A stretch of DNA of 64,000 nucleotides from Candidatus Woesearchaeota archaeon (lineage in GTDB: Archaea; Nanobdellota; Nanobdellia; Pacearchaeales; GW2011-AR1): contig CAYPFA010000003.1 in NCBI GenBank assembly GCA_964410025.1, forward strand, positions 20,880-84,879. Reading direction: 5' to 3'. Positions within the stretch are counted from its first letter, which is position 1. Each line of letters opens with the position of its first letter. Both the position numbers and the translations under genes were made by a program. Shown here piece after piece: positions 1 through 21,460 of the stretch. A model generated the notes under the pieces. That model ran no database searches and was not told the DNA's origin. It saw nothing but the letters and a program-made list of their open reading frames with translations.

Positions 1-295
1 TAATTAAAATATTTTTAAACCACATTTTTGCATTTTCTCTTTTAACAACATCATAACCCGAAATCATAAAATTAAAGCCCGTATAAAGCAATAGCAATCC
101 ATAAAACATCGAGAGGATATACATAACTATCGCCCAAATAGAACCGAACGCAGAAAGATTAACTGGCTCAGTTATCAGCGATTTTGTTAAGTCTAATAAT
201 GGCTGAATTGGTGCATTAATTAAGTTTATAATAAAATCATAAAGCTTTTGTGGGATGCAGGTTGCTAAATTCAATAAACCGCAATCGTCAGTCAT
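1..295 (-). CDS. Membrane protein, partial (N-terminal ~98 aa; gene runs past window start). ATG at 295 overlaps the TGA of the upstream gene (ATGA).
   Basis: Manual minus-strand translation from ATG 295-293 gives MTDDCGLLNLATCIPQKLYDF...GSIWAIVMYILSMFYGLLLLYTGFNFMISGY with hydrophobic helices and no stop before position 1. Confidence 0.35.
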   Translation of the reverse strand, partial: MTDDCGLLNLATCIPQKLYDFIINLINAPIQPLLDLTKSLITEPVNLSAFGSIWAIVMYILSMFYGLLLLYTGFNFMISGYDVVKRENAKMWFKNILI

Positions 296-1671
296 TTTTT
301 ACCTCCAAAATACTTTTTCAAAACCACAAGTAGAACATAATTTAGAAACAGAAAAATGCCACAGTTATAAATAATCCAAAATCTATCTTGTTCTTGTACA
401 TAAATTATTCTTTCTGTCTTTGAACTTCCATTAAAAGCAACTATCTTATTTTCTAAGTTCTGAGAAATAAAACTCGTATTTCCGAAGATAATCTTGCTTT
501 GGTTTCCATAACTAATATTTACAGATAAATTTTGAGGATAAACATAAACTTTTATTGTTTCATTCGCAAGATAATTTAATTTATCTGTTTCAATTCTAAA
601 ATCAATAGGTTTTTGCTCAGCATAGCATGATTTGTTTATGTAATTAAATAAGTCAAATGCCTCGATTGAACAATTATTTGTATTTTTAACAATTAAACTC
701 GTTCCTTGCTTGAATAAATTCTTAATTTGCTCTTGTTTGTAGTCATTTGCTCTTAAAGTTAAAACATAGTAGGGAGACTTAGAATAATTAACAGAATAAA
801 TAAATTCGTCAAACTTATAATAAGAATCTTGAAAGTTTGCTTTAACAGAATTGCTATAACTTAAATTAAAATTAGTATTGCCTGAATAACTTGAAAGTGT
901 ATTAAGATTGGCTGTTAAAGAATTGTTATAATATTTTATTTGCAGATAATCTACTGCTTGTAAATTATCTTTCTGAACTTCATTATAATTATAAGAACAT
1001 CGGTAGCTATATGTTCTGCAAACGCCATTCTTTCGCTTAGAGCAATATCTTTCCCAATAATAATGATCAATTGAATAAGAAACATTAATGGTGAAAACAG
1101 ATTTAATTTGTGAATCGCCAAGTATATTGACATTTACTAATTTTCCACTTCCCTGATAAATATTATTTACAAAAACCTTATTTTCAGAGATATTTTTAGT
1201 CAGAGTATAGCTTCTTTTGCAGTCTCCGCTACTAGTTTGCGAATATCCTGGGCTATTATAATTAACAGGAGAGATGAAATTATAGTTATAACCAGTAAAT
1301 ACTTTTGTTTGATTCGAAACATATAAAGAATTATTGTACAAAACAGAAGGCATTGCTGTAAAAATACTCATCCAAAAATCTTTAATAAAAATACCTTGCT
1401 GTTTACTTACGCCATTTGGCGGATTAACAATTGCCAAGTTTGTATTCCTATCATAAATATATTTGTGGTCTGGAAAGAATTTATTAGAATAATCTAGGTT
1501 TGAAATAATTAGTTCTTTTTCTAAGTCAGTTAAATTCATATTTTTAATTTGGACGCAGGTATCATAATTAGGTGCAGAAATTTGAGAACACTCAATAGAA
1601 TAAATGAAAGGGATTTGCACAGCTACTAAAAGTAAAAGTGCAAAGAGCCCAATCAAATATTTTTTTATCAT
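292..1671 (-). CDS. Secreted or cell-surface protein with N-terminal signal/TM segment. Asn/Tyr/Ser-rich with many N-x-S/T sequons.
   Basis: 459-aa ORF with hydrophobic N-terminus (LIGLFALLLLVAVQIPF), then a low-complexity N/Y/S-rich body. Start follows the stop of the upstream gene by 1 nt. Confidence 0.5.
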   Translation of the reverse strand: MIKKYLIGLFALLLLVAVQIPFIYSIECSQISAPNYDTCVQIKNMNLTDLEKELIISNLDYSNKFFPDHKYIYDRNTNLAIVNPPNGVSKQQGIFIKDFWMSIFTAMPSVLYNNSLYVSNQTKVFTGYNYNFISPVNYNSPGYSQTSSGDCKRSYTLTKNISENKVFVNNIYQGSGKLVNVNILGDSQIKSVFTINVSYSIDHYYWERYCSKRKNGVCRTYSYRCSYNYNEVQKDNLQAVDYLQIKYYNNSLTANLNTLSSYSGNTNFNLSYSNSVKANFQDSYYKFDEFIYSVNYSKSPYYVLTLRANDYKQEQIKNLFKQGTSLIVKNTNNCSIEAFDLFNYINKSCYAEQKPIDFRIETDKLNYLANETIKVYVYPQNLSVNISYGNQSKIIFGNTSFISQNLENKIVAFNGSSKTERIIYVQEQDRFWIIYNCGIFLFLNYVLLVVLKKYFGGKK

Positions 1672-1672
1672 G

Positions 1673-2011
1673 CTAGCCTATGATAAAATTTACTATCAAA
1701 GGTGCTAGCCAAATGACAATTAAGCCGATAACGACATACATTGCCATATTCTTTGCCTGTTCTCGTTTTCCTGGATCGTCCCCAGACATAATATATGTAA
1801 TTCCAGCAAATAACAAAACTAAAACCGCTATGGCTGAAGCAAAGTATTTTACTAGATTATATATCTTCATCACTGGAGAGAGCATTGTGTCGAATGTCGC
1901 TTTATCTGCTGGAGAGATTGGCTGATTATAGTCCAAAGCTACAACAACCTGAAGAGCAAACATTATTCCGAGTAAAACAAGACCCATGATAGAATATATT
2001 TTCTTATCCAT
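1673..2011 (-). CDS. Small two-helix membrane protein with a topology reminiscent of VirB2/TrbC-type pilins
   Basis: 112 aa with N-terminal hydrophobic segment (MGLVLLGIMFALQVVVA), a polar middle and a second long hydrophobic segment (AIAVLVLLFAGITYI...VVIGLIVIWLAPLIV). Overlaps the upstream zinc-ribbon gene. Confidence 0.4.
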   Translation of the reverse strand: MDKKIYSIMGLVLLGIMFALQVVVALDYNQPISPADKATFDTMLSPVMKIYNLVKYFASAIAVLVLLFAGITYIMSGDDPGKREQAKNMAMYVVIGLIVIWLAPLIVNFIIG

Positions 2012-2192
2012 TTTTATACCTCCTGCAAAATTTAGTTGATTTTGAGGTACTTTCTAATAGAAGACTGATAAATTGCATTATATATTTAGGATAATCTTCT
2101 CCATATTTTCCTTTAAAAAAATCCTTGCAAGAATCACAAACATCGTCTTCATTGTCATCTATTTTCTTCTGGCAAACAAAACATCTTGTCAT
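2004..2192 (-). CDS. Small zinc-ribbon protein (CxxC...CxxC)
   Basis: 62 aa: MTRCFVCQKKIDDNEDDVCDSCKDFF. Two CxxC pairs. ATGA overlap with the methyltransferase gene stop. Confidence 0.45.
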   Translation of the reverse strand: MTRCFVCQKKIDDNEDDVCDSCKDFFKGKYGEDYPKYIMQFISLLLESTSKSTKFCRRYKNG

Positions 2193-3139
2193 GATTCACC
2201 ACCTATTTCTTTTAATCTTCTTTCAGCTGTTTTGAGATATTCTCTATTTATTTCTAAACCAATAAAATTTCTTTTCAATCTTTTGCAAACTAATGCAGTT
2301 GTCCCGCTACCCATAAAGGGATCTAAAACGATTCCGCCTTCTGGACAACCTGCAAGCATGCAAAATTCAGGTAGTTTGGAAGGAAACATGGCGAAATGTA
2401 ATTCTCTTGAAGGTTCGAATGGGAACATCAAACAATCAGAGGGATTTTTACCATTAGGATGACAGGATTTTTTCACTCCATGCACATTAAATTGTTTTGC
2501 ATAAGGACTTTCTGAATTTGTTTTATATAGTGTCTTTTCTCTTTTTAGAGAGCTCTCTTTATGAGGAATTCTTACCTTATTTAAATCAAAATAATATTTT
2601 TCATTTTTAACAAAGAAGAGGATAGATTCTGAAACTGTATTAAATCTGTCTTTCGCAGAAGAAGGTATCGCATTTCCCCAGCTTTCTTTTGTTTTCCAAT
2701 TGGTTAGTGTTTTTATCCATTTAATATCGTTTCTCAATATTAATCCCAGTTGACATTGTGCAGATATTGCGATTCTATATGGGATCAGAAGCTTTTGTTT
2801 TGGTCTAAGCCAATCACATTTATGACCTAATGCCCTATTGTAGTAAGAATCGCCTATATTGAGAAAAATAGTTCCTGTTGGTTTTATTATTCTCTTACAT
2901 TCTTTTAGAATTTCTAGAATATTATTAATATAGTCTACTGGACTTTTTTCTCTGCCTATCTGATTCTTAACTCCATAATCTCTTAATGCCCAATAGGGCG
3001 GGGAAGTTATAACACAATCCACATAATTATCGGGTATTCTCTTTAGTGATTTTAGGCAATCTCCGAGGTATATTTTATTTAGTCCTCTAATGTCCTGTTT
3101 GATTGAGTTTTTTATTTTCATGGAAACCAAACCCCTCAC
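2189..3139 (-). CDS. DNA methyltransferase, N4-cytosine/N6-adenine family (PF01555-like, beta-class motif order; SPPY suggests N4C)
   Basis: N-terminal catalytic motif IV VDCVITSPPYW preceded by IYLGDCLKSLKRIPDN. C-terminal AdoMet motif I VLDPFMGSGTTALVCKRLKRNFIGLEIN. First gene of a co-directional overlapping operon. Confidence 0.8.
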   Translation of the reverse strand: MRGLVSMKIKNSIKQDIRGLNKIYLGDCLKSLKRIPDNYVDCVITSPPYWALRDYGVKNQIGREKSPVDYINNILEILKECKRIIKPTGTIFLNIGDSYYNRALGHKCDWLRPKQKLLIPYRIAISAQCQLGLILRNDIKWIKTLTNWKTKESWGNAIPSSAKDRFNTVSESILFFVKNEKYYFDLNKVRIPHKESSLKREKTLYKTNSESPYAKQFNVHGVKKSCHPNGKNPSDCLMFPFEPSRELHFAMFPSKLPEFCMLAGCPEGGIVLDPFMGSGTTALVCKRLKRNFIGLEINREYLKTAERRLKEIGGES

Positions 3140-3336
3140 TTATTCTTATATTCCCTAACAGAAAAAACTTCGAAGTTTTATTCGAACTTTTTTTAGACAA
3201 AAAATCTGTTAGTTTCTATTTAAATCAAAGAACTATTTGTTTTGTATGGAAACAAAAAAGCCCCTGACGCCCGAAGAAGTTATTGCACAACTGAAGAAAC
3301 TCATAGAATCTAGAAATAAACTTAATTCTTTAAAAA

Positions 3337-3519
3337 ATGGGAATGAACTCAAAGCTCCACATACTGCTCAAAACTGAAGACTTCAATAAGCTAAAGAACG
3401 AGGCTTTTAATAAACAGGTTTCCCTGTCTGACCTATGCAGATTAAGACTTTTGCAGTATAACCAGCTTGAGAAAATTGAATTGATACTAGAGAATATAAA
3501 TCAAAAGATAAAACATTGA
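3337..3519 (+). CDS. Putative ribbon-helix-helix (CopG/Arc-like) DNA-binding protein, divergent from the methyltransferase operon
   Basis: 60 aa. KLHILLKTEDFNKLKNEAFNKQVSLSDLCRLRL fits a beta-strand plus two helices RHH pattern. A 197-bp divergent intergenic region is shared with the MTase gene. Confidence 0.4.
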   Translation: MGMNSKLHILLKTEDFNKLKNEAFNKQVSLSDLCRLRLLQYNQLEKIELILENINQKIKH

Positions 3520-3706
3520 ATAAACCTCTATTGCCGAGTATAAGGGTCTTTAAATATAGGTATTTCTAACAAGAATCAATAAAATAGAATACTTTAAATT
3601 TACATCCCTTTCGGATAAGATAATATGTTACATTGGGCTGGAGAGTAATGTGTTTGTGATTTCAGAGAGACGGAAATACATCTCCTCGCAATCACAAAAT
3701 ACTGTA

Positions 3707-3779
3707 CGCTCCCACCGGGATTCGAACCCGGGTTTCCACCGTGAAAGGGTGATGTCCTTGGCCTCTAGACTATAGGAGC
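3707..3779 (-). tRNA. tRNA-Glu (anticodon UUC), 73 nt, no encoded CCA
   Basis: Minus-strand sequence GCTCCTA-TA-GTCT-AGAGGCCAA-GGAC-A-TCACC-CTTTCAC-GGTGG-AAAC-CCGGG-TTCGAAT-CCCGG-TGGGAGC-G folds as a canonical cloverleaf. T-loop GTTCGAATC. Anticodon loop CU-UUC-AC. Confidence 0.85.
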
Positions 3780-3801
3780 TTTGATTTCTTCAACAAAGTT
3801 G

Positions 3802-3810
3802 AATTTATAT
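3802..3810 (-). promoter_or_regulatory. TATA-like box (AATATAAAT on minus strand) about 22-30 nt upstream of tRNA-Glu 5' end
   Basis: Minus-strand upstream region reads ...TTATAGAAGAGAATATAAATTCAACTTTGTTGAAGAAATCAAA|GCTCC. The spacing fits an archaeal TATA/BRE promoter. Confidence 0.35.
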
Positions 3811-3840
3811 TCTCTTCTATAAGATAACGCAGTGCGTGCA

Positions 3841-3856
3841 TTAGACTATAGGAGCT
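3841..3856. repeat. 16-bp exact direct repeat of the tRNA-Glu 5' end (tagactataggagctt, copy of 3765-3780)
   Basis: An identical 16-mer occurs at 3765-3780 (inside and just upstream of tRNA-Glu on the minus strand) and at 3841-3856. The sequence diverges immediately outside. Confidence 0.6.
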
Positions 3857-4007
3857 TAATTTACCGAGCAAAAATTCGTTTTTAAAACTTCCTAAAATAA
3901 AAGATATATAAAACCTTAAATATTTCGAGCTTAAAAGGCTTTATCTTCACTAGAGAATAATATAAATTAACACAAACAAATAAAAAGCCTCATTTCTCTA
4001 GAAAAAT

Positions 4008-4997
4008 ATGGTAAAGGCACAAAATCCAAACCAATCGATCTCGCAAATCAATGATTTAATTTTTAAAGAACTTATTAAGCGAGGCTATTCTCTTGAGGGC
4101 AACACTCGTGTTTGGAATATAGCTGATTCTAAATTATGGTATTTAACCCCAGAGCAAGCTCAAGGCTACTTGGATTTGGAAAATGACACTAGCTACCAAA
4201 AACAAACAGGTCAACCACAAGCTGAAGATTTAATAGAATCAAACATGAAAGAAATTGTTGAAGAGGTTGGAAATGAACCAATAAACATTGTTGATTTGGG
4301 GTGTGGAGATGGCTCCAAGGCAATAAAGATTATTGAGTTATTAAGAATGATTAATCAGAATATAAAAATAAGATATTGCCCTATTGACATTAGTGGATAT
4401 ATGGTACAGAAGGCAATTGAAACAGTACTTTCTAAGAAAAATGTTAATGAGATTATAGAATTTCAATATAATATTTCTGATTTTGAAAATTTGGAAAACG
4501 TTACTCCCTTGTTAAATACGGGCGAGTATAAGAAAAATGTTTTTCTTTTGCTTGGAAATACGTTGGGTAATTTCGATATACACGAATTACTTTATGAAAT
4601 AAGAAATGCTATGAAGCTAGATGATATATTTTTGGTCGATACTGCTGTCGATGATAATAAACAAGAAGAGAGGGCGGCTGCTTATAGAAAAAACAAGAGA
4701 TTTAATGACTTCTTGGTAAATGTACCATTACAGCTTGGCTTAGATAAAGACGAAGTTGAGTGGGGGACAAGATGGAGATCACAGAGGATTGAATATTATT
4801 ATACTGTTTTAAAACAAAAAATAATTAGATTTCAAGAAAAAGAAATTGCATTTAATAAAGGAGATCAGATTATAATTGCTTACTCATACAAGCATAAGAA
4901 GGATAATCTTTTGACTTACTTTAATATGCATTTCAAACAGGTCTCTCTGAATATCTCTAAAGACAAGTCCAAGGCATTAGTTATCTGTAAAAAATAA
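4008..4997 (+). CDS. Class I SAM-dependent methyltransferase (EgtD/Methyltransf_33-like motif I)
   Basis: 329 aa. Motif I NIVDLGCGDGSKAIKIIELL with downstream acidic residue pattern. No other recognisable domains. Confidence 0.55.
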   Translation: MVKAQNPNQSISQINDLIFKELIKRGYSLEGNTRVWNIADSKLWYLTPEQAQGYLDLENDTSYQKQTGQPQAEDLIESNMKEIVEEVGNEPINIVDLGCGDGSKAIKIIELLRMINQNIKIRYCPIDISGYMVQKAIETVLSKKNVNEIIEFQYNISDFENLENVTPLLNTGEYKKNVFLLLGNTLGNFDIHELLYEIRNAMKLDDIFLVDTAVDDNKQEERAAAYRKNKRFNDFLVNVPLQLGLDKDEVEWGTRWRSQRIEYYYTVLKQKIIRFQEKEIAFNKGDQIIIAYSYKHKKDNLLTYFNMHFKQVSLNISKDKSKALVICKK

Positions 4998-5023
4998 AAA
5001 ACTCACAAAAATAAATGAGTTAC

Positions 5024-5374
5024 TTAAAAATTAAATTTCTTTGCAATATTTCCTATAATTGGAGTTTCCTTTTCTTCTCCAGACAAAGCATAAACCCAGC
5101 TGAATATCCAAAGAACAGTAAAAAATAAACTAATTAATTTACTTATTATCCATCCGAATCCAGGAATCCAGAATATTATAGAGCTAATAATTGAACCAAC
5201 TATTGCAAATAAAAATATTACCAATGATTGTTTTGCATAAAACATTACATATTTATTTTCTTTTTTTGTTAGTAATGCAATAAGAAATCCAACAATACTA
5301 AAGAAAGCAGCAACGAATGCAAATGTCTTGCTATCATCAGTTTTTTTTGCAACAACTTTTTTTGATTTCACCAT
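5024..5374 (-). CDS. Small integral membrane protein (3 predicted TM helices), Lys-rich N-terminus
   Basis: 116 aa. MVKSKKVVAKKTDD then FAFVAAFFSIVGFLIALL, LVIFLFAIVGSIISSIIFWIPGFGWII and FFTVLWIFSWVYAL. Confidence 0.45.
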   Translation of the reverse strand: MVKSKKVVAKKTDDSKTFAFVAAFFSIVGFLIALLTKKENKYVMFYAKQSLVIFLFAIVGSIISSIIFWIPGFGWIISKLISLFFTVLWIFSWVYALSGEEKETPIIGNIAKKFNF

Positions 5375-5792
5375 AAAACCTCCCTTTTCCGATATAGAAT
5401 ACCTAAGTCGTCGTCGTTTATAAAACTAGTTATTTAAAAAATTTCACAAAAATAAATTCTGAGCCCAAAAAAATTTCGCTGTTGAGTTTATCATTGCGAA
5501 GCAACTATTGTTTAGTATTTCGCAACTGCAAAATTTTTTCACAAGATTTGACTTTTCCGCAGAATGATTCCCCCGGGACAAATATTGGTAACGAATAAAA
5601 TGAGCTCACCAAAATGTTGAACTTCAAGCAATTCGCTTTTGCCTTAATATTTCTAAATTTAAAATTGCAAATGCAAATTGCGAGTCAGGACCCCCCTGGA
5701 GTCACAAGTGCGTGCATAATTTTCACAAAGTGAAAACAAATATCCTTCTTTATTTCCAGGGAAACTTTCTTCGGTGAAGAAAGGAAGCCTAA

Positions 5793-5913
5793 TGAGCCCA
5801 CCAAGATTTGAACTTGGGACCCCCGCCTTTCTTAGCATTTCTGCTTGAAATAATGTTTCTAACGAAACACGTTCTTATAAGAGCGGTGCTCTACCAGGCT
5901 AAGCTATGGGCTC
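5793..5913 (-). tRNA. Intron-containing tRNA, anticodon UAU (tRNA-Ile-like), ~47-nt intron at canonical 37/38 position
   Basis: Minus strand: GAGCCCA-TA-GCTT-AGCCTGGTA-GAGC-A-CCGCT-CTTATA[47-nt intron AGAACGTGTTTCGTTAGAAAC...GCTAAGAA]A-GGCGG-GGGTC-CCAAG-TTCAAAT-CTTGG-TGGGCTC-A. All stems pair. Mature length is 74 nt. Confidence 0.6.
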
Positions 5914-6926: not shown

Positions 6927-7638
6927 AAGCGCTTATAAGAAAAGATATGATGGAAGAAAGAATGACGAACTTAGACCAATCTCTGCTAGGGTAGGAATTG
7001 TGCCTTCCGCTGATGGTTCTGCAATCTATCAATCTGGAAAAACAAGAGCTATTGCTGTTGTTCGAGGACCACGATTACTTCATCCAAAACATATGGAAAA
7101 TCCTAAAAAAGGAATCTTAAGAGTTAATTATCAAATGATGGCCTTCTCTGTATGGGACAGAATCAAGCCAGGAAACTCAAGAAGAGGACAAGAAATCGGA
7201 AAAGTTACAGAATGGGCTTTATCTGAAATTGTTGATTTAGAAGCTTTCCCTAATTCCGTAGTTGATGTTATTATTCAAATTCCACAAGCTGATGCTGGAA
7301 CAAGAGTAGCTGGAATCAATGCTGCTGCTATGGCTTTGGCTCAAGCTGGCGTACCAATGAAAGAAATGGTTTCTGCTGTTGCCGTTGGAAAAATGGATAG
7401 AACTTTAGTTGTTGATGTTGATAAAGAAGAAGAAGACTTTGAAGAAGGCGAAGGCGCAACAGATATTCCGATCTGTTTTACTTCAAGAACAAAAAAGATA
7501 AGTTTATTACAATTAGACGGTAAAATTTCAATACCAGAATTAAAAGAATCAATTGAAATGGCAAAGAAAGCTTCAGAAAAAATATATGATGTTCAAATGA
7601 GAGCACTTAAAGAACCAGGAAAAGAGGTAAAAGGATAA
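6913..7638 (+). CDS. rrp41: Exosome complex exonuclease Rrp41 (RNase PH fold). Start moved to ATG 6913 with upstream AAGGAG.
   Basis: RNase PH-like sequence (RKNDELRPISARVGIVPSADGSAIYQSGKTRAIAVVRGP...). The ORF caller start at 6853 lies inside rrp4. ATG 6913 is preceded by aaggagaag. Confidence 0.85.
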   Translation: MSKTESAYKKRYDGRKNDELRPISARVGIVPSADGSAIYQSGKTRAIAVVRGPRLLHPKHMENPKKGILRVNYQMMAFSVWDRIKPGNSRRGQEIGKVTEWALSEIVDLEAFPNSVVDVIIQIPQADAGTRVAGINAAAMALAQAGVPMKEMVSAVAVGKMDRTLVVDVDKEEEDFEEGEGATDIPICFTSRTKKISLLQLDGKISIPELKESIEMAKKASEKIYDVQMRALKEPGKEVKG

Positions 7639-14402: not shown

Positions 14403-14771
14403 TTACTGACAATGACGACAGTTGATACTTGGACTGCCAGCATTATTGCATGAACATGGATCATCATACCAACACGTAGGACTGTCAGAGCTGCATATGT
14501 TCTTATCGCAAGAGCATTCACTGTCACATGCACAATGCTTCTCACATTGACAGTAATCGTTACAACGACAGTGTCTGCACTCACTATCGCACCTACACTC
14601 TGTATTGCAGTCGCACTTATAATCATCGCAACTTGAGCTTTGTGCATCGCAACTGCAACCAAAAGTTTTTTCTGCGATTGTTCCCTTGCCGCTTCTCAGC
14701 AAGACTGCTCTTATTAACTTAGAATCTTCTGGTGTTGTGCTTAAGATGAACCTGTCGTTTGGTTTTTGCAT
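14403..14771 (-). CDS. Cys-rich precursor-like peptide 1 (conserved leader + 22-Cys core with CxC[D/N]xxC heptads)
   Basis: MQKPNDRFILSTTPEDSKLIRAVLLRSGKGTIAEKTFG then CSCDAQSSSCDDYKCDCNTECRCDSECRHCRCNDYCQCEKHCACDSECSCDKNIC.... It is a paralog of ORF 15472..15789 and co-directional with the rSAM and peptidase. Confidence 0.6.
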   Translation of the reverse strand: MQKPNDRFILSTTPEDSKLIRAVLLRSGKGTIAEKTFGCSCDAQSSSCDDYKCDCNTECRCDSECRHCRCNDYCQCEKHCACDSECSCDKNICSSDSPTCWYDDPCSCNNAGSPSINCRHCQ

Positions 14772-14806
14772 TATATTTTATACTTTTTAGATTTAAATAA
14801 ATTGTG

Positions 14807-15469
14807 CTAAATAATTACTACTCCCCAGTCCAAAGCTGAGATGTCTCTAATTCTGTTAAAATCTGAAAATAGCATGTGCTTATTCGCGCCCGCAAAACTT
14901 GGACCAGAATTGTGATAAATTATTCCAGTAGAGTCATACCCTACCAAGGGAATATAATGTCCTCCAAAACGATTTACTTTTAAGAAGGAATCGTAATTTA
15001 ATAAGACGATGGGGATTCGCCCGCTGTCTATTTTCTTTAATAAAAATTCTAGGGGTGGGCGTGATGGTTTCTTCTGCGATAACTCGTCTGCAAAAACTTC
15101 TTTATTTATTTCTGCAACTTTTTCTAAATTTATTGAGGATAAAAGATTTTCTGCGAATTCTCCATAGAACTTTTTACTAGCTTGTCTTAATTGCTCTATA
15201 TCTGTAGGATCGCATAACATTGGATCTTTTATGAAATATTCTACCGGGACTCCTAGTTTTCTACAGGCGAGAACAATCTGAGTAGGCAGTGTCAATTCTT
15301 TTTCCTCGTGCCTAGTTAATTCATTTAGTTCTTCAAAGGAAAATTCTCTTTCGGGCAATCTGACTTTCAACGCGGACATCATCGCTGCCTGGGCGCAATT
15401 TCTTTTCTGGCTTAAAAAAAATGGAACTTGCATTTTATCTAATAATTTATCCAAAATAATCTCCACCAT
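14807..15469 (-). CDS. Papain-like Cys peptidase, C39-like (putative leader peptidase)
   Basis: 220 aa. N-terminal Q-x3-NCAQAAMMSAL resembles the C39 catalytic Cys motif (Q...CG.A.L). Downstream GGHYIPLVGYDSTG supplies candidate His/Asp. Confidence 0.5.
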   Translation of the reverse strand: MVEIILDKLLDKMQVPFFLSQKRNCAQAAMMSALKVRLPEREFSFEELNELTRHEEKELTLPTQIVLACRKLGVPVEYFIKDPMLCDPTDIEQLRQASKKFYGEFAENLLSSINLEKVAEINKEVFADELSQKKPSRPPLEFLLKKIDSGRIPIVLLNYDSFLKVNRFGGHYIPLVGYDSTGIIYHNSGPSFAGANKHMLFSDFNRIRDISALDWGVVII

Positions 15470-15471
15470 TT

Positions 15472-15789
15472 TTACTTCACACGGAAATCAAAATCATCAT
15501 AAGGGCATGCACCGTGATGCTCATTACAGCTACAATAATTATCACATCTGCATGGCTCTTTATAATCTACGCAAATACAATGTTTACATTGTGAATCGCA
15601 CCTACATTGTACGTTGCAGTCACATTGAGGATCGCAGTGACTATCACAACTTGAGCTTTGTGTGTCGCAACTGCAACCAAAAGTTTTTTCTGCAATTGTT
15701 CCCTTGCCACTTCTCAGCAAGACTGCTTTTATTAACTTAGAATCTTTATGTGTTGTACTTAATATGAACCTATCTTTTGGTTTTTGCAT
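15472..15789 (-). CDS. Cys-rich precursor-like peptide 2 (same leader, 16-Cys core). Start moved to internal ATG 15789 preceded by GGAGG.
   Basis: MQKPKDRFILSTTHKDSKLIKAVLLRSGKGTIAEKTFG then CSCDTQSSSCDSHCDPQCDCNVQCRCDSQCKHCICVDYKEPCRCDNYCSCNEHHGAC.... GGAGG 9 nt upstream of the internal Met. Overlaps the 3' end of the rSAM gene. Confidence 0.6.
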   Translation of the reverse strand: MQKPKDRFILSTTHKDSKLIKAVLLRSGKGTIAEKTFGCSCDTQSSSCDSHCDPQCDCNVQCRCDSQCKHCICVDYKEPCRCDNYCSCNEHHGACPYDDFDFRVK

Positions 15790-17200
15790 TGTCAATTTCC
15801 TCCGAGGCATTTAATCTTTGAAGTATTTGGCTTTTTAAAAGTCCTCTGTTAATCACGCATCTAGCATTATTTGTTGAGTCTAGAATTTTTCCTGATTGCT
15901 CCAATACCTTGGCCGGGCAGTCGCCTGCACAGTTATATTTTGCAAAACAATCTTCACAAAATTCCATATTTGTTACTTTTCTGTTTCGGAGATTTTCTAT
16001 GTTTTCTAAGTTGAAATCTATTTTGCCGGTCGTCTCATTGTATTGCCCAATCTTAAATGAATTAAAAATTGGGCTCTCTTCCCTACAAGCCTCAAGACAA
16101 GTAGTTACAAATCCCGTCGGAGTAATGAAAAAATTTCCACCGCATGCACCGCAAAATGTTTCACTGATCTTGTCTATCGAACCGCCTGAATAATAAAATG
16201 AAACTCCTAAATCTTTTGCTCTTTTTTCAGCAATAAGCATTTGTTCTAGAAAAACACCTGGGTCCGGTGCTTTGGCTCCAGTTGTTTGACATCGTCCGCA
16301 TTCAAATAAAGGTTCTAGATGAAAACTTTTGTTCCGAGATATTGAAGAGAAAAATTCTAAAATTTCTGGAATTCTCTTTACGCTATAGTCCGTTATTGTT
16401 GCCCGCATCCCATAGTTATAACTTTTTCCATCTTTTGCTTTGGCTTGATCAAGGTATTTAATTGTCCTAACTACATCATTGAAAGAACCCTGTCCGCCTT
16501 TTTTCGGTCTTTGCCTATTTTGAATATCTTCCGGTCCGTCTATGGAAATATTAATCCTATCAAAATTTTCTACTGCCCACTGCATTGTTTCTAAAGAATG
16601 AACTCCATTTGTTACTACATCTGCACGACTTTTAAGTCCAGCAGCAGATGACGTTTCTTTTAAATACGCAAGCGCATAGTTAATGAGTGGCAAATTACTA
16701 GACAATAAAGGTTCGCCTCCGCCATGAAAACCCACGTTAACATTATCCGATTTTTTTTTAAGTGCATTTTCGACAATAAAATCTATAGATGCCTTTGCTA
16801 TCTCTGGTTTTATAACTTGAGACAGATCGCCTGCACAAGCATAGCAATACTCACAATTAAGATTGCATCCAAATGTCGGTAGAAGCGTAACAGATGTAGG
16901 ACTATAATGTGTCTCATGGCAAGATGAGCAGGAGGATGATTTATTTTGTCCTTCCGGAACTAAAATTCTTGTCTTGAATAAATGTTCTGCCAATACAGGA
17001 TCTATTTCATATGGATTTGCCCCTTGTTGTATCTTGAAAAAAAAGTTTTCAACTCCTGGCGTAACCTCTACGACCGAGCCAGCAAGAGGAGCATAAAGAA
17101 TAGTTCTGTTTTCAACCGGAATCTTAAATAATTCGGAAGTTATTCTAAGCTTATCTTGGTCTGTTGCCATGAGTCTGATACTACTTTGGAGTTTCGTCAC
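15770..17200 (-). CDS. Radical SAM enzyme with C-terminal SPASM-like Cys-rich domain and ~100-aa N-terminal extension (putative RiPP maturase)
   Basis: CxxxCxxC at ~residue 112 (TFGCNLNCEYCYA). GGGEPLL motif. C-terminal CGACGGNFFITPTGFVTTCLEAC...CEDCFAKYNCAGDCPA auxiliary-cluster cysteines. Confidence 0.8.
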   Translation of the reverse strand: MTKLQSSIRLMATDQDKLRITSELFKIPVENRTILYAPLAGSVVEVTPGVENFFFKIQQGANPYEIDPVLAEHLFKTRILVPEGQNKSSSCSSCHETHYSPTSVTLLPTFGCNLNCEYCYACAGDLSQVIKPEIAKASIDFIVENALKKKSDNVNVGFHGGGEPLLSSNLPLINYALAYLKETSSAAGLKSRADVVTNGVHSLETMQWAVENFDRINISIDGPEDIQNRQRPKKGGQGSFNDVVRTIKYLDQAKAKDGKSYNYGMRATITDYSVKRIPEILEFFSSISRNKSFHLEPLFECGRCQTTGAKAPDPGVFLEQMLIAEKRAKDLGVSFYYSGGSIDKISETFCGACGGNFFITPTGFVTTCLEACREESPIFNSFKIGQYNETTGKIDFNLENIENLRNRKVTNMEFCEDCFAKYNCAGDCPAKVLEQSGKILDSTNNARCVINRGLLKSQILQRLNASEEIDNAKTKR

Positions 17201-19567: not shown

Positions 19568-21460
19568 ATGGGTGATACTAGTTACGAAAATTTTTATGGC
19601 GGAGGAATCTCTAGTTTTGATTCCAATTATTCTTCAGGTGGAGCTTTTCTGGGAAATCATGATTATAAAATGTCAAATAATCTAGGATTTCCAGGCTCTG
19701 CTCAAACAGCAAATCAGCTCAAGGAAACCGTTAATGCAATCAAGCAGGGTGTGAAAGCATTCGAGGTTACAATGGTTAGTCCAGAAACTGCCGATCAAAT
19801 TCCCATACAAAATTTTGATGAAATGCGTGCGTTAATGAAATTAACTGGAGTCAAGCCATCCGTTCACGCGCCAATTATAGATCCATCGGGTTTCGAACAA
19901 CGAGCAGGATATAGCGAGGAGCATAGAAAAGAGGCTGAAAGAAAATTATTTGACACGCTAAAAAAAGCAAGCATGTTAGATAGGGAAAATAATGTTCCAG
20001 TCGTAATTCACTCGACAGCCAATGTTCAGGGCGCAGAATATCGTCCAGGAGACGAGTCAAAAGGAGAATCGAGATGGAATAGAGTTTCACTAGGTGTATT
20101 TAATAAACAGAGTAAACAAATCGCCGGAGTAATTCCAGAAGAAAGAGAATACGCTTTAGATATGAGTGCAAAAGATTATGCTAATGGCGGTAAACTAACG
20201 AAAGCAGAAGACATGATTGCAAAAGAAAATAAAAGCAGTTGGATAAAAGAAAAAGAGCACATAAATTATTACACACGTATAATGGATCAAGAGGTTGAAA
20301 GTTTTAATAGACAAGGGCTGGATAAGACTGGAGATATAGAAGATAAAGAAATACAAAAAAGTTTTTTAAGCAATATTAATCGTGCTCAGGGTCTCGTTGA
20401 AACGAATCAAGAACAGGTTAATCAGCTCTGGAATAAGCTCGGAAAATTTGGTACAGATGAACAAAGAGGAGAGCTAAAGAAAATTTCAGAAAAGTATGCG
20501 GATGATGTAAAAAAGTTTGATGAGAAAAAGAAGGAAGCAATTGATGATGAAGCCAAAAAAAGATTGATTGTTGAAAAGGCTCAATTTATAAATAGCGTCT
20601 ATGAAGATCTAAACAACATAACTAGCGGCTACTCCCCTCATGATAAAAATAAACTAGAAACTAAAGAGTCTGAAGAAAAATGGGGAGCTCCCAAGATACT
20701 TGTAAACGCAGAAGAATTTGCAAAGGAAAAGGCAGCTGAGACTTTGGGCGCAGTTGCATGGAGAGGATATAAAGAACTTGGAGGAGAAAAGGCTCCGATG
20801 ATTGCGGTAGAAAATATGTATTCAGGCATGGCTTTCTCGAGGGCAGAAGACATGGAGGGATTGATAAAGAATTCAAGAAAAAAATTTGTTGAGAATGCGA
20901 AAAAAAATGGTATGGATGAAAGAGATGCTAGTGCAGCAGCAGAAAAATTAATAGGAGTTACTTGGGACGTTGGACATCTTAATTTATTTAAAAAATCTGG
21001 ATTTACGGATAAGGATGTAATTGGTGAAACGGCAAAAATTGCGCCTTTAGTTAAACATGTTCATCTAACTGATAATTTTGGCTATTCAGATTCTCATCTC
21101 GCTCCCGGAATGGGAAATGTGCCATTTAAAGAAATTCTTAAAGAACTCGAGAGAACTGGAAAACTAGGCGATATGAGAAAGATTGTTGAGGCACCAGGTT
21201 TCTTCCAACATTTTCAAAAATCTCCTCACTCATGGACCATGGCGGCGCTAGGAAGCCCAATCTACGGCGGAATGATGGGTCCCTATTGGAATCAGGCATC
21301 GGGAGTTTCAAGTGGCGGCGGATATATGGGCGGACCTATGGCTTATCTTCCAGAGAAACATTTTTCAACCTACGGAAGCGGATTTTCATCCTTGCCAGCA
21401 GAACTGGGCGGACAACTTCCAGGGACACAATCGAGATTTAGTGGGACGCCGAATACTTAG
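19568..21460 (+). CDS. Xylose-isomerase-like TIM-barrel (sugar phosphate isomerase/epimerase/AP-endonuclease-2 fold) protein with a long K/E-rich insertion
   Basis: C-terminal VKHVHLTDNFGYSDSHLAPGMGNVPFKEILKELERTGKLGDMRKIVEAPGF matches the PF01261-type H-x-H-l-D...H-l-G-G-idf...GY-G...E pattern. N-terminal barrel-like start (FEVTMVSP...PSVHAPIIDPS). The middle ~200 aa is charged. Confidence 0.45.
   Translation: MGDTSYENFYGGGISSFDSNYSSGGAFLGNHDYKMSNNLGFPGSAQTANQLKETVNAIKQGVKAFEVTMVSPETADQIPIQNFDEMRALMKLTGVKPSVHAPIIDPSGFEQRAGYSEEHRKEAERKLFDTLKKASMLDRENNVPVVIHSTANVQGAEYRPGDESKGESRWNRVSLGVFNKQSKQIAGVIPEEREYALDMSAKDYANGGKLTKAEDMIAKENKSSWIKEKEHINYYTRIMDQEVESFNRQGLDKTGDIEDKEIQKSFLSNINRAQGLVETNQEQVNQLWNKLGKFGTDEQRGELKKISEKYADDVKKFDEKKKEAIDDEAKKRLIVEKAQFINSVYEDLNNITSGYSPHDKNKLETKESEEKWGAPKILVNAEEFAKEKAAETLGAVAWRGYKELGGEKAPMIAVENMYSGMAFSRAEDMEGLIKNSRKKFVENAKKNGMDERDASAAAEKLIGVTWDVGHLNLFKKSGFTDKDVIGETAKIAPLVKHVHLTDNFGYSDSHLAPGMGNVPFKEILKELERTGKLGDMRKIVEAPGFFQHFQKSPHSWTMAALGSPIYGGMMGPYWNQASGVSSGGGYMGGPMAYLPEKHFSTYGSGFSSLPAELGGQLPGTQSRFSGTPNT

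What the first reader, a model, noticed from the sequence alone, without database searches (positions are those of the whole stretch)
1..3860. DNA methyltransferase with divergent RHH regulator, zinc-ribbon, pilin-like and secreted-protein operon abutting tRNA-Glu: possible integrated or mobile module
A beta-class N4/N6 DNA methyltransferase (SPPY ... DPFMGSGTT) heads a translationally coupled minus-strand operon with ATGA overlaps at every junction. The operon continues with a 62-aa CxxC zinc-ribbon protein, a 112-aa two-helix membrane protein with VirB2/TrbC-like topology, a 459-aa Asn/Tyr-rich secreted protein and a further membrane protein running off the window edge. A small RHH-like ORF is divergently transcribed from the same intergenic region, in an arrangement that resembles C-protein-type control. 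No restriction endonuclease is visible. The block ends ~570 bp from the 3' end of tRNA-Glu, a classic integration target. A 16-bp direct repeat of the tRNA 5' end lies just upstream of the tRNA.
Basis: partly seen in the sequence, partly recalled or inferred. Interest (0 to 1): 0.55.

Follow-up and report, generated by a model that had tools for sequence, protein, structure and literature searches.

The report
tRNA-integrated type IV secretion element
The methyltransferase operon is the tRNA-proximal end of a small integrated mobile element that encodes a minimal conjugation-type (type IV secretion) machine; I found the element family in 80 fetched loci (162 matches) from tiny DPANN archaea (labelled Pacearchaeota, Woesearchaeota or Nanoarchaeota) and no description of it in the papers I could search.

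Summary
Window 2-3519 holds a beta-class DNA methyltransferase, a Zn-ribbon, a VirB2/TrbC pilin, a 459-aa surface protein and the start of a polytopic membrane protein. An RHH gene is divergent, and tRNA-Glu lies 187 bp beyond it.

An identical metagenome contig (L001) continues the operon into a 987-aa VirB3/VirB4 ATPase with a C-terminal PD-(D/E)xK nuclease-like domain. A dCMP deaminase and a type I R-M system follow.

The same module occurs in 80 loci from species-representative genomes, nearly all labelled as DPANN archaea. In at least 13 of them the order is tRNA, tyrosine integrase, MTase/RHH, then the T4SS genes. One locus has a 15-nt att repeat that brackets 14.7 kb.

In the window's own population, a variant contig diverges exactly 2 nt past the tRNA-Glu 3' end, and another contig has different genes there. 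A close relative carries the same element arm next to tRNA-Asp.

So "integrated or mobile module" is supported. C-protein-type control, ATGA overlaps at every junction, and the 16-bp repeat as an att clue are not.

The window copy has no integrase and no attR within 13.5 kb. No relaxase or coupling protein was seen anywhere. Direction of transport and the MTase's role are inferred.

The parts
2..295 (-). First 98 codons of a 277-aa polytopic membrane protein (p277). It sits in the VirB6 position, directly before VirB4, and its N-terminus resembles the pilin.
   Evidence: Its ATG overlaps the stop of the 459-aa ORF as ATGA. The full gene is L001 3537..4370. The family is present in 76 loci. 24 of 54 members give a weak T4SS_pilin hit and only 1 of 54 a weak TrbL/VirB6 hit.
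292..1671 (-). 459-aa membrane-anchored all-beta surface protein (p459).
   Evidence: No Pfam, NCBIfam or PADLOC family matched. 66 homologues were found, with 6 invariant Cys. The AF2 model has pLDDT 86: N-terminal helices, long-stranded beta sandwiches, an Ig-like domain and a TM helix. Foldseek returned only generic Ig/FN3/MG-domain surface proteins, TM <= 0.23. Short 120-140-aa family members keep only the N-terminal 70 aa and the C-terminal anchor.
1673..2011 (-). VirB2/TrbC-type T4SS pilin, 112 aa.
   Evidence: PF18895 E=3.1e-17 and PF04956 at 32.1 bits, both above their cut-offs. There is a weak match to the Mycoplasma ICE pilin-like family NF045849. It is conserved in 76 loci.
2004..2192 (-). 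62-aa four-cysteine Zn-ribbon protein. It is usually the first gene of the T4SS operon.
   Evidence: The ORF overlaps the pilin start by 8 nt and the MTase stop as ATGA. Homologues occur in 51 loci. It is fused to the C-terminus of a class-2 MTase in L033.
2189..3121 (-). Beta-class N4/N6 DNA methyltransferase, 310 aa, 'class 2' (SPPY ... DPFMGSGT).
   Evidence: PF01555 E=1.3e-55. PADLOC Type II MTase E=8e-74. Solved relatives include both N4C and N6A enzymes. ATG 3121 is the start: the TATA-like box is only 12 nt from the upstream GTG, and homologues and gene calls are 310 aa. Three of three homologues picked independently lie next to a pilin-p277-VirB4 set.
3143..3225 (.). Dyad-symmetric divergent control region. 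It has TATA-like boxes at 3143-3152 (minus strand) and 3217-3225 (plus strand), an inverted repeat CTAACAGA (3155-3162) / TCTGTTAG (3205-3212), and two TTCGAA hexamers (3169-3174, 3181-3186) among A/T tracts.
   Evidence: Read from the sequence and from the repeat search. The inverted repeat is conserved, with 9-nt arms, in relative L003, while the second TTCGAA is not. Most other loci have the analogous AATCGGAGA...TCTCCGATT flanking phased A/T tracts. Its function as operator or oriT is inferred.
3246..3377 (+). 43-aa small helical protein (p46), the first gene of the divergent unit. It overlaps the RHH ORF by 41 nt.
   Evidence: ORF seen. A counterpart with the same position and a 50-nt overlap occurs in L025 and L037, and a 4-nt overlap occurs in L017. 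No family matched.
3337..3519 (+). 60-aa ribbon-helix-helix protein (rhh60).
   Evidence: An alignment of 28 family members shows the beta-strand/helix/helix pattern. Sub-threshold Pfam matches are NikA-like in 15/28, CopG_antitoxin in 13/28, and RHH_1/3/4/5/7. It is present in 30 loci.
3520..3706 (.). Element arm next to the tRNA. The junction with the chromosome lies at about 3704/3705.
   Evidence: Variant contig L087 is 100% identical to window 3705-5771 and unrelated to the left of that. This arm is homologous to the sequence that follows tRNA-Asp in L003.
3707..3779 (-). tRNA-Glu(UUC). Its 3' end faces the element, so it is the integration target.
   Evidence: ARAGORN and Rfam at 62 bits. 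The same tRNA-then-element orientation is seen in at least 13 related loci.
3842..3857 (.). Second copy of a 16-nt repeat of the tRNA 5' end. The first copy is 3766-3781. It is not a boundary of this element.
   Evidence: It lies upstream of the tRNA promoter, on the chromosomal side. It is also present in contigs L087 and L088.

Best explanation
Window 1-3706 is the tRNA-proximal part of an integrated mobile element of a DPANN archaeon (relatives are labelled Pacearchaeota, Woesearchaeota or Nanoarchaeota). The element is built around a minimal, monoderm-type (MPF-FATA-like) type IV secretion or conjugation module.

Shown:
- The gene order is p46 and RHH, divergent from MTase, Zn-ribbon, VirB2 pilin, anchored surface protein, VirB6-position membrane protein, and a VirB3/VirB4 ATPase with a C-terminal PD-(D/E)xK nuclease-like domain.
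- The module is conserved in 80 fetched loci.
- It lies downstream of different tRNA genes, usually with a tyrosine integrase next to the tRNA.
- One locus has att repeats.
- The block is present or absent exactly at the tRNA-Glu 3' end among close relatives of this organism.
- A DNA methyltransferase of one of three kinds is embedded at varying positions in 31 of 50 modules, and is once fused to the Zn-ribbon.

Inferred:
- The VirB2 pilus, the membrane channel and the VirB4 ATPase move DNA between cells.
- The RHH protein binds the inverted repeat that overlaps both divergent promoters. It would act as repressor and/or as a NikA-like DNA-processing accessory.
- The nuclease-like domain on VirB4 processes the DNA in place of a separate relaxase.
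- The methyltransferase pre-methylates the element or host DNA, so that transferred or resident DNA survives restriction. That restriction includes the R-M cargo these elements carry.

The window copy lacks the integrase and the small class-1 MTase that most relatives have between the tRNA and the RHH. It is therefore probably no longer self-excising.
For: Extension of the operon:
- Contig L001 is 100% identical to window 1-3831. It continues into p277, VirB4, a dCMP deaminase and type I R-M genes.

T4SS identity:
- VirB4 passes the NCBIfam equivalog NF045971 (329.1 bits against a 325 cut-off). It also has the CagE_TrbE_VirB domain and a weak PrgI/VirB3 N-terminus.
- The pilin passes two Pfam cut-offs.

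Nuclease-like domain:
- The AF2 model has pLDDT 91.
- Foldseek hits are dominated by Hjc, XPF, YaeQ, Cdn1 and restriction enzymes.
- Weak Pfam hits are CoiA_nuc, AHJR-like and ERCC4.
- Residues E881, D912, E925, E927 and K942 are invariant.

Distribution:
- 162 relatives in species-representative genomes, 80 loci fetched, nearly all labelled as DPANN archaea.
- The gene order was mapped.

Mobility:
- 36 of 85 loci have a tyrosine recombinase within 10 kb.
- At least 13 show tRNA then integrase within 80-250 bp, followed by the module.
- L046 has a 15-nt direct repeat of the tRNA-Asp 3' end, 14.7 kb apart.
- L087 breaks 2 nt past the tRNA-Glu 3' end. A second contig with the identical 329-aa neighbour has ThiF-family and other genes there instead.
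- The same element arm lies next to tRNA-Asp in L003.
- The dinucleotide signature of the element is an outlier: 58 against a background of 21-42.

MTase linkage:
- 31 of 50 modules have an adjacent or embedded MTase.
- The reciprocal test gave 3 of 3.
- There is an MTase-Zn-ribbon fusion, and one protein carries both PF01555 and PF18895.

RHH:
-.
Against: - There is no integrase in the 64-kb window or in L001.
- There is no second copy of the tRNA-Glu 3' end within 13.5 kb, and no copy of the empty-site flank. The far boundary of this copy is therefore unknown.
- L003, the closest long relative, also lacks a detectable attR.
- No relaxase and no VirD4-type coupling protein appeared in the Pfam annotations of seven loci or among the 10 recurrent neighbour families I annotated with Pfam. 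Self-transfer is unproven.
- The nuclease assignment rests on marginal fold scores (E 5e-4 to 0.1, TM 0.4-0.5). The motif is ExE rather than ExK.
- VirB6 homology of p277 is not demonstrated.
- The empty-site evidence is 17 nt of a short contig plus a gene list without DNA.
- GC content barely deviates: 31.0% against 31.8-34.5%.
- Nothing shows the direction of transport or the substrate.
Confidence: 0.7

Rival explanations
1. This is a host-serving DNA-import or host-contact apparatus, working like the crenarchaeal Ced/Ted systems or the essential T4SS of Patescibacteria. The pilus, channel and VirB4 bring in DNA from the host or from neighbouring cells for repair or nucleotide salvage. The VirB4-fused nuclease degrades or processes incoming DNA. 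The methyltransferase marks self DNA. The integrases and tRNAs reflect only how the gene set spreads.
For: - The component set is minimal: a VirB2-like pilin, a polytopic membrane protein and one VirB4-type ATPase. There is no coupling protein or relaxase, as in Ced/Ted (PMC9905601).
- VirB4 is very highly conserved, 58-82% identity over about 1000 aa in more than 100 clusters.
- There are weak CoiA (competence nuclease) matches.
- A dCMP deaminase recurs next to the module in 4 loci.
- DPANN archaea are described in the literature as reduced, host-dependent cells. T4SS essentiality is shown in the similarly reduced Patescibacteria (PMC12857230).
- The window copy has no integrase.
Against: - The tRNA-integrase-att architecture, multiple copies per genome and presence/absence polymorphism are those of a selfish integrative element.
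- Cargo is typical of mobile islands: R-M systems, a reverse transcriptase, a toxin gene.
- The two readings are not exclusive. An element could encode an import machine.
Confidence: 0.2
2. This is an ordinary orphan or R-M-associated methyltransferase under C-protein-like control that merely happens to lie next to a pilus operon.
For: - The MTase matches Type II MTase models.
- A small DNA-binding protein is divergently transcribed from a region with an inverted repeat.
- In most relatives the RHH gene directly precedes a small MTase in one operon.
Against: - There is no endonuclease gene beside it.
- The regulator is RHH, not the HTH of C proteins.
- The RHH gene stays with the T4SS genes where no MTase follows it, as in the window and L003.
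- The MTase-T4SS linkage is reciprocal and does not depend on position, and includes a gene fusion with the Zn-ribbon.
- TTCGAA is not avoided in the window: 17 observed against 15.3 expected.
Confidence: 0.04
3. This is a decayed remnant with no present function. The window copy lost its integrase and class-1 MTase and is a fossil island.
For: - Integrase and attR are missing.
- Assemblies break repeatedly in this region: L001 at 3831, L086 at 1489, L087 and L088 at the tRNA.
Against: - All seven module ORFs are intact.
- They are tightly packed, and I read Shine-Dalgarno-like GGAGG/GGTG motifs upstream of the internal starts.
- They are 82-86% identical in protein to those of relative L003 (MTase, p459 and VirB4).
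Confidence: 0.06

Closest known systems
MPF-FATA conjugation modules of monoderm ICEs and plasmids (CD1110-family VirB4 of Clostridioides conjugative transposons; Mbov_0397/Mbov_0395 of Mycoplasma and Spiroplasma ICEs)
   Same: - VirB4 reaches the NCBIfam CD1110 equivalog cut-off and scores 306 bits on the Mbov_0397 model.
- The best plasmid matches are Firmicutes, Actinobacteria and Spiroplasma VirB4s.
- The pilin weakly matches the Mbov_0395 pilin-like family.
- The element is integrated, with a tyrosine recombinase at a tRNA.
   Different: - Identity to those VirB4s is only 23-31%, and they never cover residues beyond about 826.
- The C-terminal PD-(D/E)xK-like domain, the N-terminal VirB3-like fusion, and the embedded MTase, Zn-ribbon and RHH set are specific to the archaeal clade.
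- No VirD4 coupling protein, relaxase, VirB1 hydrolase or VirB8-like protein was seen.
- The elements are only about 10-18 kb.
Ced (Sulfolobales) and Ted (Thermoproteales) archaeal DNA-import systems (PMC9905601)
   Same: - Both are archaeal.
- Both are a minimal set of a VirB2-like pilin, a VirB6-like membrane protein and one VirB4/HerA-type ATPase.
- Both lack a relaxase and a coupling protein.
   Different: - As I recall, Ced and Ted are described as chromosomal systems of the cell and not as integrase-bearing elements at tRNAs. A word search of PMC9905601 found no mention of integrase, methyltransferase or DPANN.
- The nuclease-domain fusion, the MTase, the RHH and the Zn-ribbon I know of only here. 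I did not check Ced/Ted for them.
- Sequence relationship to CedA/CedB was not tested here.
T4SS of Patescibacteria/CPR (PMC12102498)
   Same: - Both occur in an ultrasmall, host-dependent lineage.
- Both are MPF-FATA-derived VirB4 systems with a VirB2-like pilin of the same Pfam family (PF18895).
- That paper reports 37 patescibacterial VirB4s that cluster with archaeal homologues.
   Different: - The patescibacterial loci usually include VirD4, VirB1, VirB8-like and separate VirB3 genes.
- That paper reports no VirB3-VirB4 fusions.
- A word search of that paper found 'nuclease' not at all and 'methyltransferase' only once. I did not read whether its loci are integrated at tRNAs.
Orphan methyltransferases of conjugative plasmids and phages (for example the PRK13699-type plasmid DNA methylase)
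   Same: - Both are solitary beta-class MTases carried by a transfer-competent element and expressed with the transfer genes.
- The 214-aa class-1 MTase of most relatives best matches NF010253/PRK13699, at 118.7 bits, below its 244-bit cut-off.
   Different: - Here the MTase is inside or heads the mating-apparatus operon. I have not seen that placement described for plasmid leading-region MTases.
- It is exchangeable among three MTase kinds (PF01555 DPPY, PF01555 SPPY and MT-A70).
- An anti-restriction role is inferred, not shown.
RHH relaxosome accessory proteins and transfer-operon repressors (NikA of R64; CopG/TraY-type)
   Same: - It is a small RHH protein encoded beside an intergenic region with inverted repeats and A/T tracts, between divergent transfer operons.
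- NikA-like is the most frequent Pfam match: 15 of 28 members, best E 1.3e-4.
   Different: - All matches are below the Pfam cut-offs.
- No relaxase partner is present.
- Binding to the inverted repeat is untested.

Membership tests
Type IV secretion / conjugative mating-pair-formation system | VirB4-family ATPase | tested here: met
   L001 4367..7330 lies just outside the window on the identical contig. NF045971 scores 329.1 bits against a 325 cut-off. PF03135 scores 22.9 against 21. PF19044 has E=5e-26.
Type IV secretion / conjugative mating-pair-formation system | VirB2/TrbC-type pilin | tested here: met
   Window 1673..2011: PF18895 62.9 bits against 26.6, and PF04956 32.1 against 27.9.
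Type IV secretion / conjugative mating-pair-formation system | VirB6-type polytopic channel protein | tested here: inconclusive
   p277 has the right position and is hydrophobic throughout. Only 1 of 54 members gives a weak TrbL/VirB6 hit, while 24 of 54 hit T4SS_pilin in the N-terminal part.
Type IV secretion / conjugative mating-pair-formation system | VirB3-like membrane segment | tested here: inconclusive
   PrgI hit at residues 5-54 of VirB4: E=6e-4, 20.7 bits against a 27 cut-off. PF12666 is precomputed for several homologues.
Self-transmissible conjugative element | Relaxase and VirD4-type coupling protein | tested here: not met
   Neither appears in the Pfam annotations of seven loci or among the 10 recurrent neighbour families I annotated with Pfam. 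Archaeal conjugative plasmids also lack recognisable relaxases (PMC12857230), so this does not exclude transfer.
Integrative element at a tRNA gene | Site-specific recombinase next to the tRNA | tested here: not met
   There is none in the window or in L001. It is met in relatives: at least 13 loci show tRNA then a PF00589 integrase within 80-250 bp, and 36 of 85 loci have one within 10 kb.
Integrative element at a tRNA gene | Direct att repeats that include the tRNA 3' end | tested here: not met
   There is no second copy of 10 nt or more within 13.5 kb of the window's tRNA-Glu. It is met in L046: CGGCAGGGGCGTTCA at 5823-5837 and 20499-20513.
Integrative element at a tRNA gene | Presence/absence polymorphism with the breakpoint at the tRNA | tested here: met
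   L087 is identical from window 3705 rightwards and different to the left. A contig with the identical 329-aa neighbour has ThiF-family and other genes on that side. The homologous arm lies next to tRNA-Asp in L003.
Beta-class N4/N6 DNA methyltransferase (PF01555) | Catalytic (D/S)PP(Y/F) motif upstream of the AdoMet motif FxGxG, over a full-length domain | tested here: met
   SPPY is at residue 40 and DPFMGSGT at residue 267 of the 310-aa protein. PF01555 covers profile positions 1-220 of 221. N4-cytosine against N6-adenine cannot be decided. Solved relatives include both. From general knowledge, SPPY leans towards N4C.
C-protein-controlled restriction-modification system | Cognate endonuclease gene plus an HTH C protein with a C-box | tested here: not met
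   There is no endonuclease ORF in the block. The regulator matches only RHH families.
Ribbon-helix-helix (CopG/Arc/MetJ/NikA) DNA-binding proteins | N-terminal beta-strand followed by two helices, with family-level sequence match | tested here: inconclusive
   The pattern is conserved in 28 sequences. At least ten RHH-type Pfam families are hit, all below their cut-offs, best E 1.3e-4. No structure was predicted.
PD-(D/E)xK nuclease superfamily (C-terminal domain of VirB4) | Restriction-endonuclease-like fold with conserved acidic and lysine residues | tested here: inconclusive
   The model is confident, pLDDT 91. Top Foldseek hits are almost all PD-(D/E)xK proteins, but with E 5e-4 to 0.1 and TM 0.4-0.5. 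E881, D912, E925, E927 and K942 are invariant, but the motif reads ExE, not ExK.
Ced/Ted archaeal DNA-import systems | Sequence or profile homology to CedA, CedA1, CedB or the Ted proteins | not tested
The resemblance is in composition only (PMC9905601).

The most novel reading that the evidence does not exclude
These are the first recognised integrative-conjugative elements of DPANN archaea. They form a very compact family (about 10-18 kb) that inserts at tRNA 3' ends and moves DNA with only a VirB2 pilus, one channel protein and a single ATPase. That ATPase is fused to a restriction-endonuclease-fold domain, which would replace both the relaxase and the coupling protein. An RHH accessory protein and an MTase/Zn-ribbon pair are built in. 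The pair would make transferred DNA restriction-proof.
Probability: 0.35. Interest if true: 0.75.

Novelty: new variant of a known kind. Interest (0 to 1): 0.6.

Why it matters
DPANN archaea make up a large share of archaeal diversity. They have reduced genomes, and how they exchange genes or take up DNA from hosts is largely unknown.

If the reading is right, several things follow:
- A conserved, compact, tRNA-integrating element with a minimal T4SS would be a concrete vehicle for gene flow in this group.
- It would be a natural minimal model for how a VirB4 machine handles DNA without a separate relaxase or coupling protein.
- It would be a clear case of a DNA methyltransferase recruited as a standing part of a transfer apparatus.
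- It would give annotators a rule. In these genomes, the small MTase, RHH, Zn-ribbon and pilin genes next to a tRNA mark a mobile element and not a restriction system.

For this window alone the result is more modest: it holds an integrase-less copy of that element.

Tried and rejected
- **att search.** I looked for a second copy of the tRNA-Glu 3' end (at least 10-11 nt) in L001 and in the window, and found none. I looked for the 17-nt empty-site flank in L001 and the window, and found none. L003 has no attR either.
- **Extending the contig.** Looking up the identical MTase gave only the same two contigs.
- **Metagenome scan.** An exact-pattern scan for the chromosomal flank gave 0 hits, so those samples are apparently not in that collection.
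- **Viral contigs.** No relatives of VirB4 were found, so this is not a virus.
- **TTCGAA as MTase target or phase switch.** I considered that the two TTCGAA hexamers, and the locus-specific cores between A/T tracts in other loci, are the MTase's target and form an epigenetic switch. Three results count against it, so I dropped it as a claim. L025 and L037 have nearly identical MTase and RHH proteins but different cores. L003 has lost the second TTCGAA. TTCGAA is not depleted in the window.
- **Inverted repeat against RHH residues.** An automatic search for inverted repeats that co-vary with RHH beta-strand residues was too noisy to use.
- **p46 and RHH as one frameshifted gene.** Rejected, because L017 has the two as separate genes with a 4-nt overlap.
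- **PDB sequence search with the nuclease-domain profile.** Only noise.
- **p459 fold search.** Only generic Ig-like matches.
- **Representative-library search of the nuclease-like domain.** 707 hits, mostly 150-400 aa. Of the four I inspected, two are 2-TM-anchored stand-alone proteins and one contains the end of a VirB4. This was not decisive.
- **Literature.** Six full-text searches and five papers checked by word search gave no description of this DPANN module.

Full report
**1. What is in the window**

ORF listing and direct reading show a tightly packed minus-strand gene row:

| Gene | Coordinates | Size |
|---|---|---|
| MTase | 2189..3139 (start most likely ATG 3121) | 310 aa |
| Zn-ribbon | 2004..2192 | 62 aa |
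| Pilin-like protein | 1673..2011 | 112 aa |
| p459 | 292..1671 | 459 aa |
| Further ORF, leaving the window | 2..295 | 98 codons in window |

The junctions are, in order: ATGA, an 8-nt overlap, a 1-nt spacer, and ATGA. The claim of ATGA at every junction is therefore only half right.

- Pfam confirms the MTase (PF01555, E=1.3e-55).
- Pfam places the 112-aa protein above the curated cut-offs of both T4SS_pilin and TrbC/VirB2.
- Two small ORFs lie on the other strand. One is a 43-aa helical protein (3246..3377). It overlaps a 60-aa RHH-like protein (3337..3519).
- tRNA-Glu(UUC) is at 3707..3779 on the minus strand, with its 3' end pointing at the block.
- The 16-nt repeat of the tRNA 5' end is exact and unlikely by chance.
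- The neighbouring genes are archaeal housekeeping genes: exosome subunits Rrp4 and Rrp41, and Rpb6.
- GC is about 32% throughout the window.

**2. The operon continues into a type IV secretion ATPase**

A look-up of the 459-aa protein found a JGI contig, L001, that is 100% identical to window 1-3831 and extends leftwards. In order it carries:

- The truncated ORF, which is a 277-aa polytopic membrane protein.
- A 987-aa protein with a weak PrgI/VirB3-like N-terminus, a CagE_TrbE_VirB domain and a TraG/HerA P-loop domain. It reaches the NCBIfam equivalog cut-off of CD1110-family VirB4 conjugal-transfer ATPases.
- A dCMP deaminase.
- A complete type I HsdR.
- Two unknown genes, one of them DUF4238.
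- HsdS.

The last 155 or so residues of VirB4 form an extra domain.

- It is conserved in all close homologues.
- AlphaFold models it confidently, pLDDT 91.
- Foldseek against the PDB returns almost only PD-(D/E)xK proteins: Cdn1, YaeQ, Hjc, XPF/Hef, splicing endonuclease and restriction enzymes. The scores are marginal.
- Single-sequence Pfam scans give weak CoiA_nuc, AHJR-like and ERCC4 hits.
- E881, D912, E925, E927 and K942 are invariant.
- Plasmid-borne VirB4s match only residues of about 90-826, at 23-31% identity.

**3. The module is a conserved unit of DPANN archaea**

VirB4 has more than 750 relatives. The best 120 are 58-82% identical over the full length. Where they are named, the names are Pacearchaeota, Woesearchaeota or Nanoarchaeota.

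A scan of one genome per species found 162 relatives, and I fetched 80 loci. With my own ORF calls and iterated HMMs, the usual layout is:

- [MTase, RHH, small helical protein] on one strand.
- [Zn-ribbon, pilin, p459-family protein, p277, VirB4] divergently on the other strand.

Family counts across the 85 loci then held (the 80 plus L001-L005): Zn-ribbon in 51, RHH in 30, pilin and p277 in 76. The pilin and p277 profiles hit the same ORFs, so that count is shared.

The p459 family keeps an N-terminal 70 residues and a C-terminal anchor. Its central domain of about 330 aa is present or absent. The window's long form models as an anchored all-beta ectodomain.

**4. The methyltransferase belongs to the module**

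A DNA MTase lies next to or inside 31 of 50 modules that have enough flanking sequence. Its kind and position vary.

- Class 1 is a 211-220-aa DPPY enzyme behind the RHH gene. This is the commonest form.
- Class 2 is a 290-370-aa SPPY enzyme, as in the window. It is found before the RHH gene, at the head of the T4SS operon, between the Zn-ribbon and the pilin, or between p277 and VirB4.
- An MT-A70 enzyme is the third kind.

Further links:

- In L033 the class-2 MTase is fused to the Zn-ribbon.
- One database protein carries both MTase and T4SS-pilin domains.
- Going the other way, three of three class-2 homologues chosen only for lying on long contigs sit divergently next to pilin-p277-VirB4.

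Chance adjacency and a plain R-M reading are therefore rejected. The window has the class-2 enzyme only. The place where relatives have the integrase and the class-1 enzyme is 187 bp of non-coding DNA.

**5. It is an integrated element**

The largest unexplained neighbour family turned out to be a tyrosine recombinase (PF00589).

- 36 of 85 loci have an integrase within 10 kb.
- In at least 13 loci a tRNA is followed within 80-250 bp by the integrase and then the module. The tRNA is Asp ten times, plus Glu, Cys and Gly. In each case its 3' end points at the module.
- In L046, the last 11 nt of tRNA-Asp plus 4 nt recur 14.7 kb downstream. The repeats bracket the integrase, MTase, RHH, the T4SS genes, a reverse transcriptase, unknown genes and a 93-aa protein.
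- That 93-aa protein marks the distal end in L046. Its family recurs in 16 loci, mostly 1-9 kb downstream of VirB4.

For the window itself:

- Contig L087, from another run, is identical from 3705 rightwards and unrelated to the left. The break is 2 nt past the tRNA 3' end.
- An 11-kb contig with the identical 329-aa neighbour protein has ThiF-family and other genes on that side.
- The sequence following tRNA-Glu here is homologous to the sequence following tRNA-Asp in relative L003.
- The element's dinucleotide signature lies outside the window's background, 58 against 21-42. GC barely differs.

Against a currently active element:

- There is no integrase anywhere in the window or in L001.
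- There is no attR or empty-site flank within 13.5 kb.
- There is none in L003 either.

The 16-nt repeat is on the chromosomal side and is also present in L087 and L088. It is unrelated to this element's boundaries.

**6. The control region**

Between the two divergent starts lies a near-perfect dyad: TATA-like box, 4 nt, CTAACAGA, 42 nt, TCTGTTAG, 4 nt, TATA-like box.

- The centre holds two TTCGAA hexamers 12 bp apart, among A/T tracts.
- The inverted repeat is conserved in L003. The second TTCGAA is not.
- Most other loci have AATCGGAGA...TCTCCGATT in the same places.
- The RHH family has the expected strand-helix-helix pattern.
- Its most frequent Pfam match, though below threshold, is NikA, an oriT-binding relaxosome accessory protein. 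CopG-type families follow.

I infer that the RHH binds the repeat and controls both promoters. The region may also be where DNA processing starts. Neither is shown.

**7. Mechanism and its limits**

Shown: the anatomy, the family assignments, conservation, linkage to tRNA and integrase, polymorphism, and the MTase association.

Inferred:
- DNA is the substrate.
- The VirB4-fused domain nicks or processes DNA.
- The MTase protects DNA from restriction. This would be relevant because these elements often carry R-M systems as cargo.

No relaxase or VirD4 was seen. This resembles archaeal conjugative plasmids and the Ced/Ted importers (PMC12857230, PMC9905601). It leaves export, import and host-contact functions all open.

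**8. Comparison and novelty**

The system works like an ICE with an MPF-FATA-type apparatus. In composition it also resembles Ced/Ted and the patescibacterial T4SS (PMC12102498). It differs from all of them in four ways:

- the VirB3-VirB4-nuclease fusion;
- the built-in MTase, Zn-ribbon and RHH genes;
- its small size;
- its DPANN host range.

Six full-text searches and five papers checked by word search turned up no description of it. The library is incomplete, so prior mention elsewhere cannot be excluded. I rate it a new variant of a known kind.

Noticed in passing
window 5793-5913 (-): An intron-containing tRNA found by Rfam (53 bits) but missed by ARAGORN. It has a 48-nt insertion after the anticodon loop. 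The anticodon reads as UAU (Ile) in the alignment. It sits in the 780-bp 'empty' stretch before the Rrp4 gene.
   Followed up: partly
window 14625-14772 and 15643-15790: A 148-nt direct repeat, 91% identical, flanks a 220-aa minus-strand ORF (14807..15469). No Rfam family matches it.
   Followed up: partly
window 3766-3781 / 3842-3857: An exact 16-nt copy of the tRNA-Glu 5' end lies 62 nt upstream of the tRNA, beyond its TATA-like box. It is also present in contigs whose sequence past the tRNA differs. It may be a scar of an older event at this tRNA.
   Followed up: partly
L035/L037 (JAIORZ010000011.1) and L038/L065 (JAGVXH010000003.1); L043/L071 (JAHWHZ010000001.1): Some genomes carry two modules on one contig. 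Two pairs are convergent, about 40-50 kb apart. In one genome two modules flank a single tRNA-Ile and integrase.
   Followed up: no
L046 12930-14042 (-); L091 2435-3616 (+): A reverse transcriptase (RVT_1) lies next to the 3' end of VirB4, on the opposite strand, in two unrelated loci. It is possibly a defence or retron-type cargo gene.
   Followed up: no
L046 20067-20348 and 15 other loci: A conserved protein of about 93 aa (...KGKxxYSESxQAWNTIxLKKE...EKRSKFSYE...) with no family match lies in most loci 1-9 kb downstream of VirB4. In L046 it lies directly before attR, the position expected of an excision or regulatory factor.
   Followed up: partly
P0307, P0309 (library proteins): The nuclease-like C-terminal domain of VirB4 also occurs as stand-alone proteins of about 290 aa. 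These have two N-terminal TM helices and a charged linker.
   Followed up: partly
L001 7419-7841; also L005, L007, L029: A dCMP/cytidine deaminase gene recurs close to the module in four loci. It directly follows VirB4 in L001 and L029. It could be chromosomal flank, or linked to nucleotide handling.
   Followed up: no
L010 1017-2099, L083 5303-6340: Some class-2 MTases carry an internal Cys-rich insertion (CPExVCKKCGTP...CSCNSGF) between the catalytic and AdoMet motifs. This is another zinc-finger-like element tied to the MTase.
   Followed up: no
L025 7116-7259 / 6980-7165; L037; window 3246-3377 / 3337-3519: The small helical ORF and the RHH ORF overlap by 41-50 nt in different frames in several loci, but by only 4 nt in L017. 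The long overlap is conserved at the protein level in both frames.
   Followed up: partly
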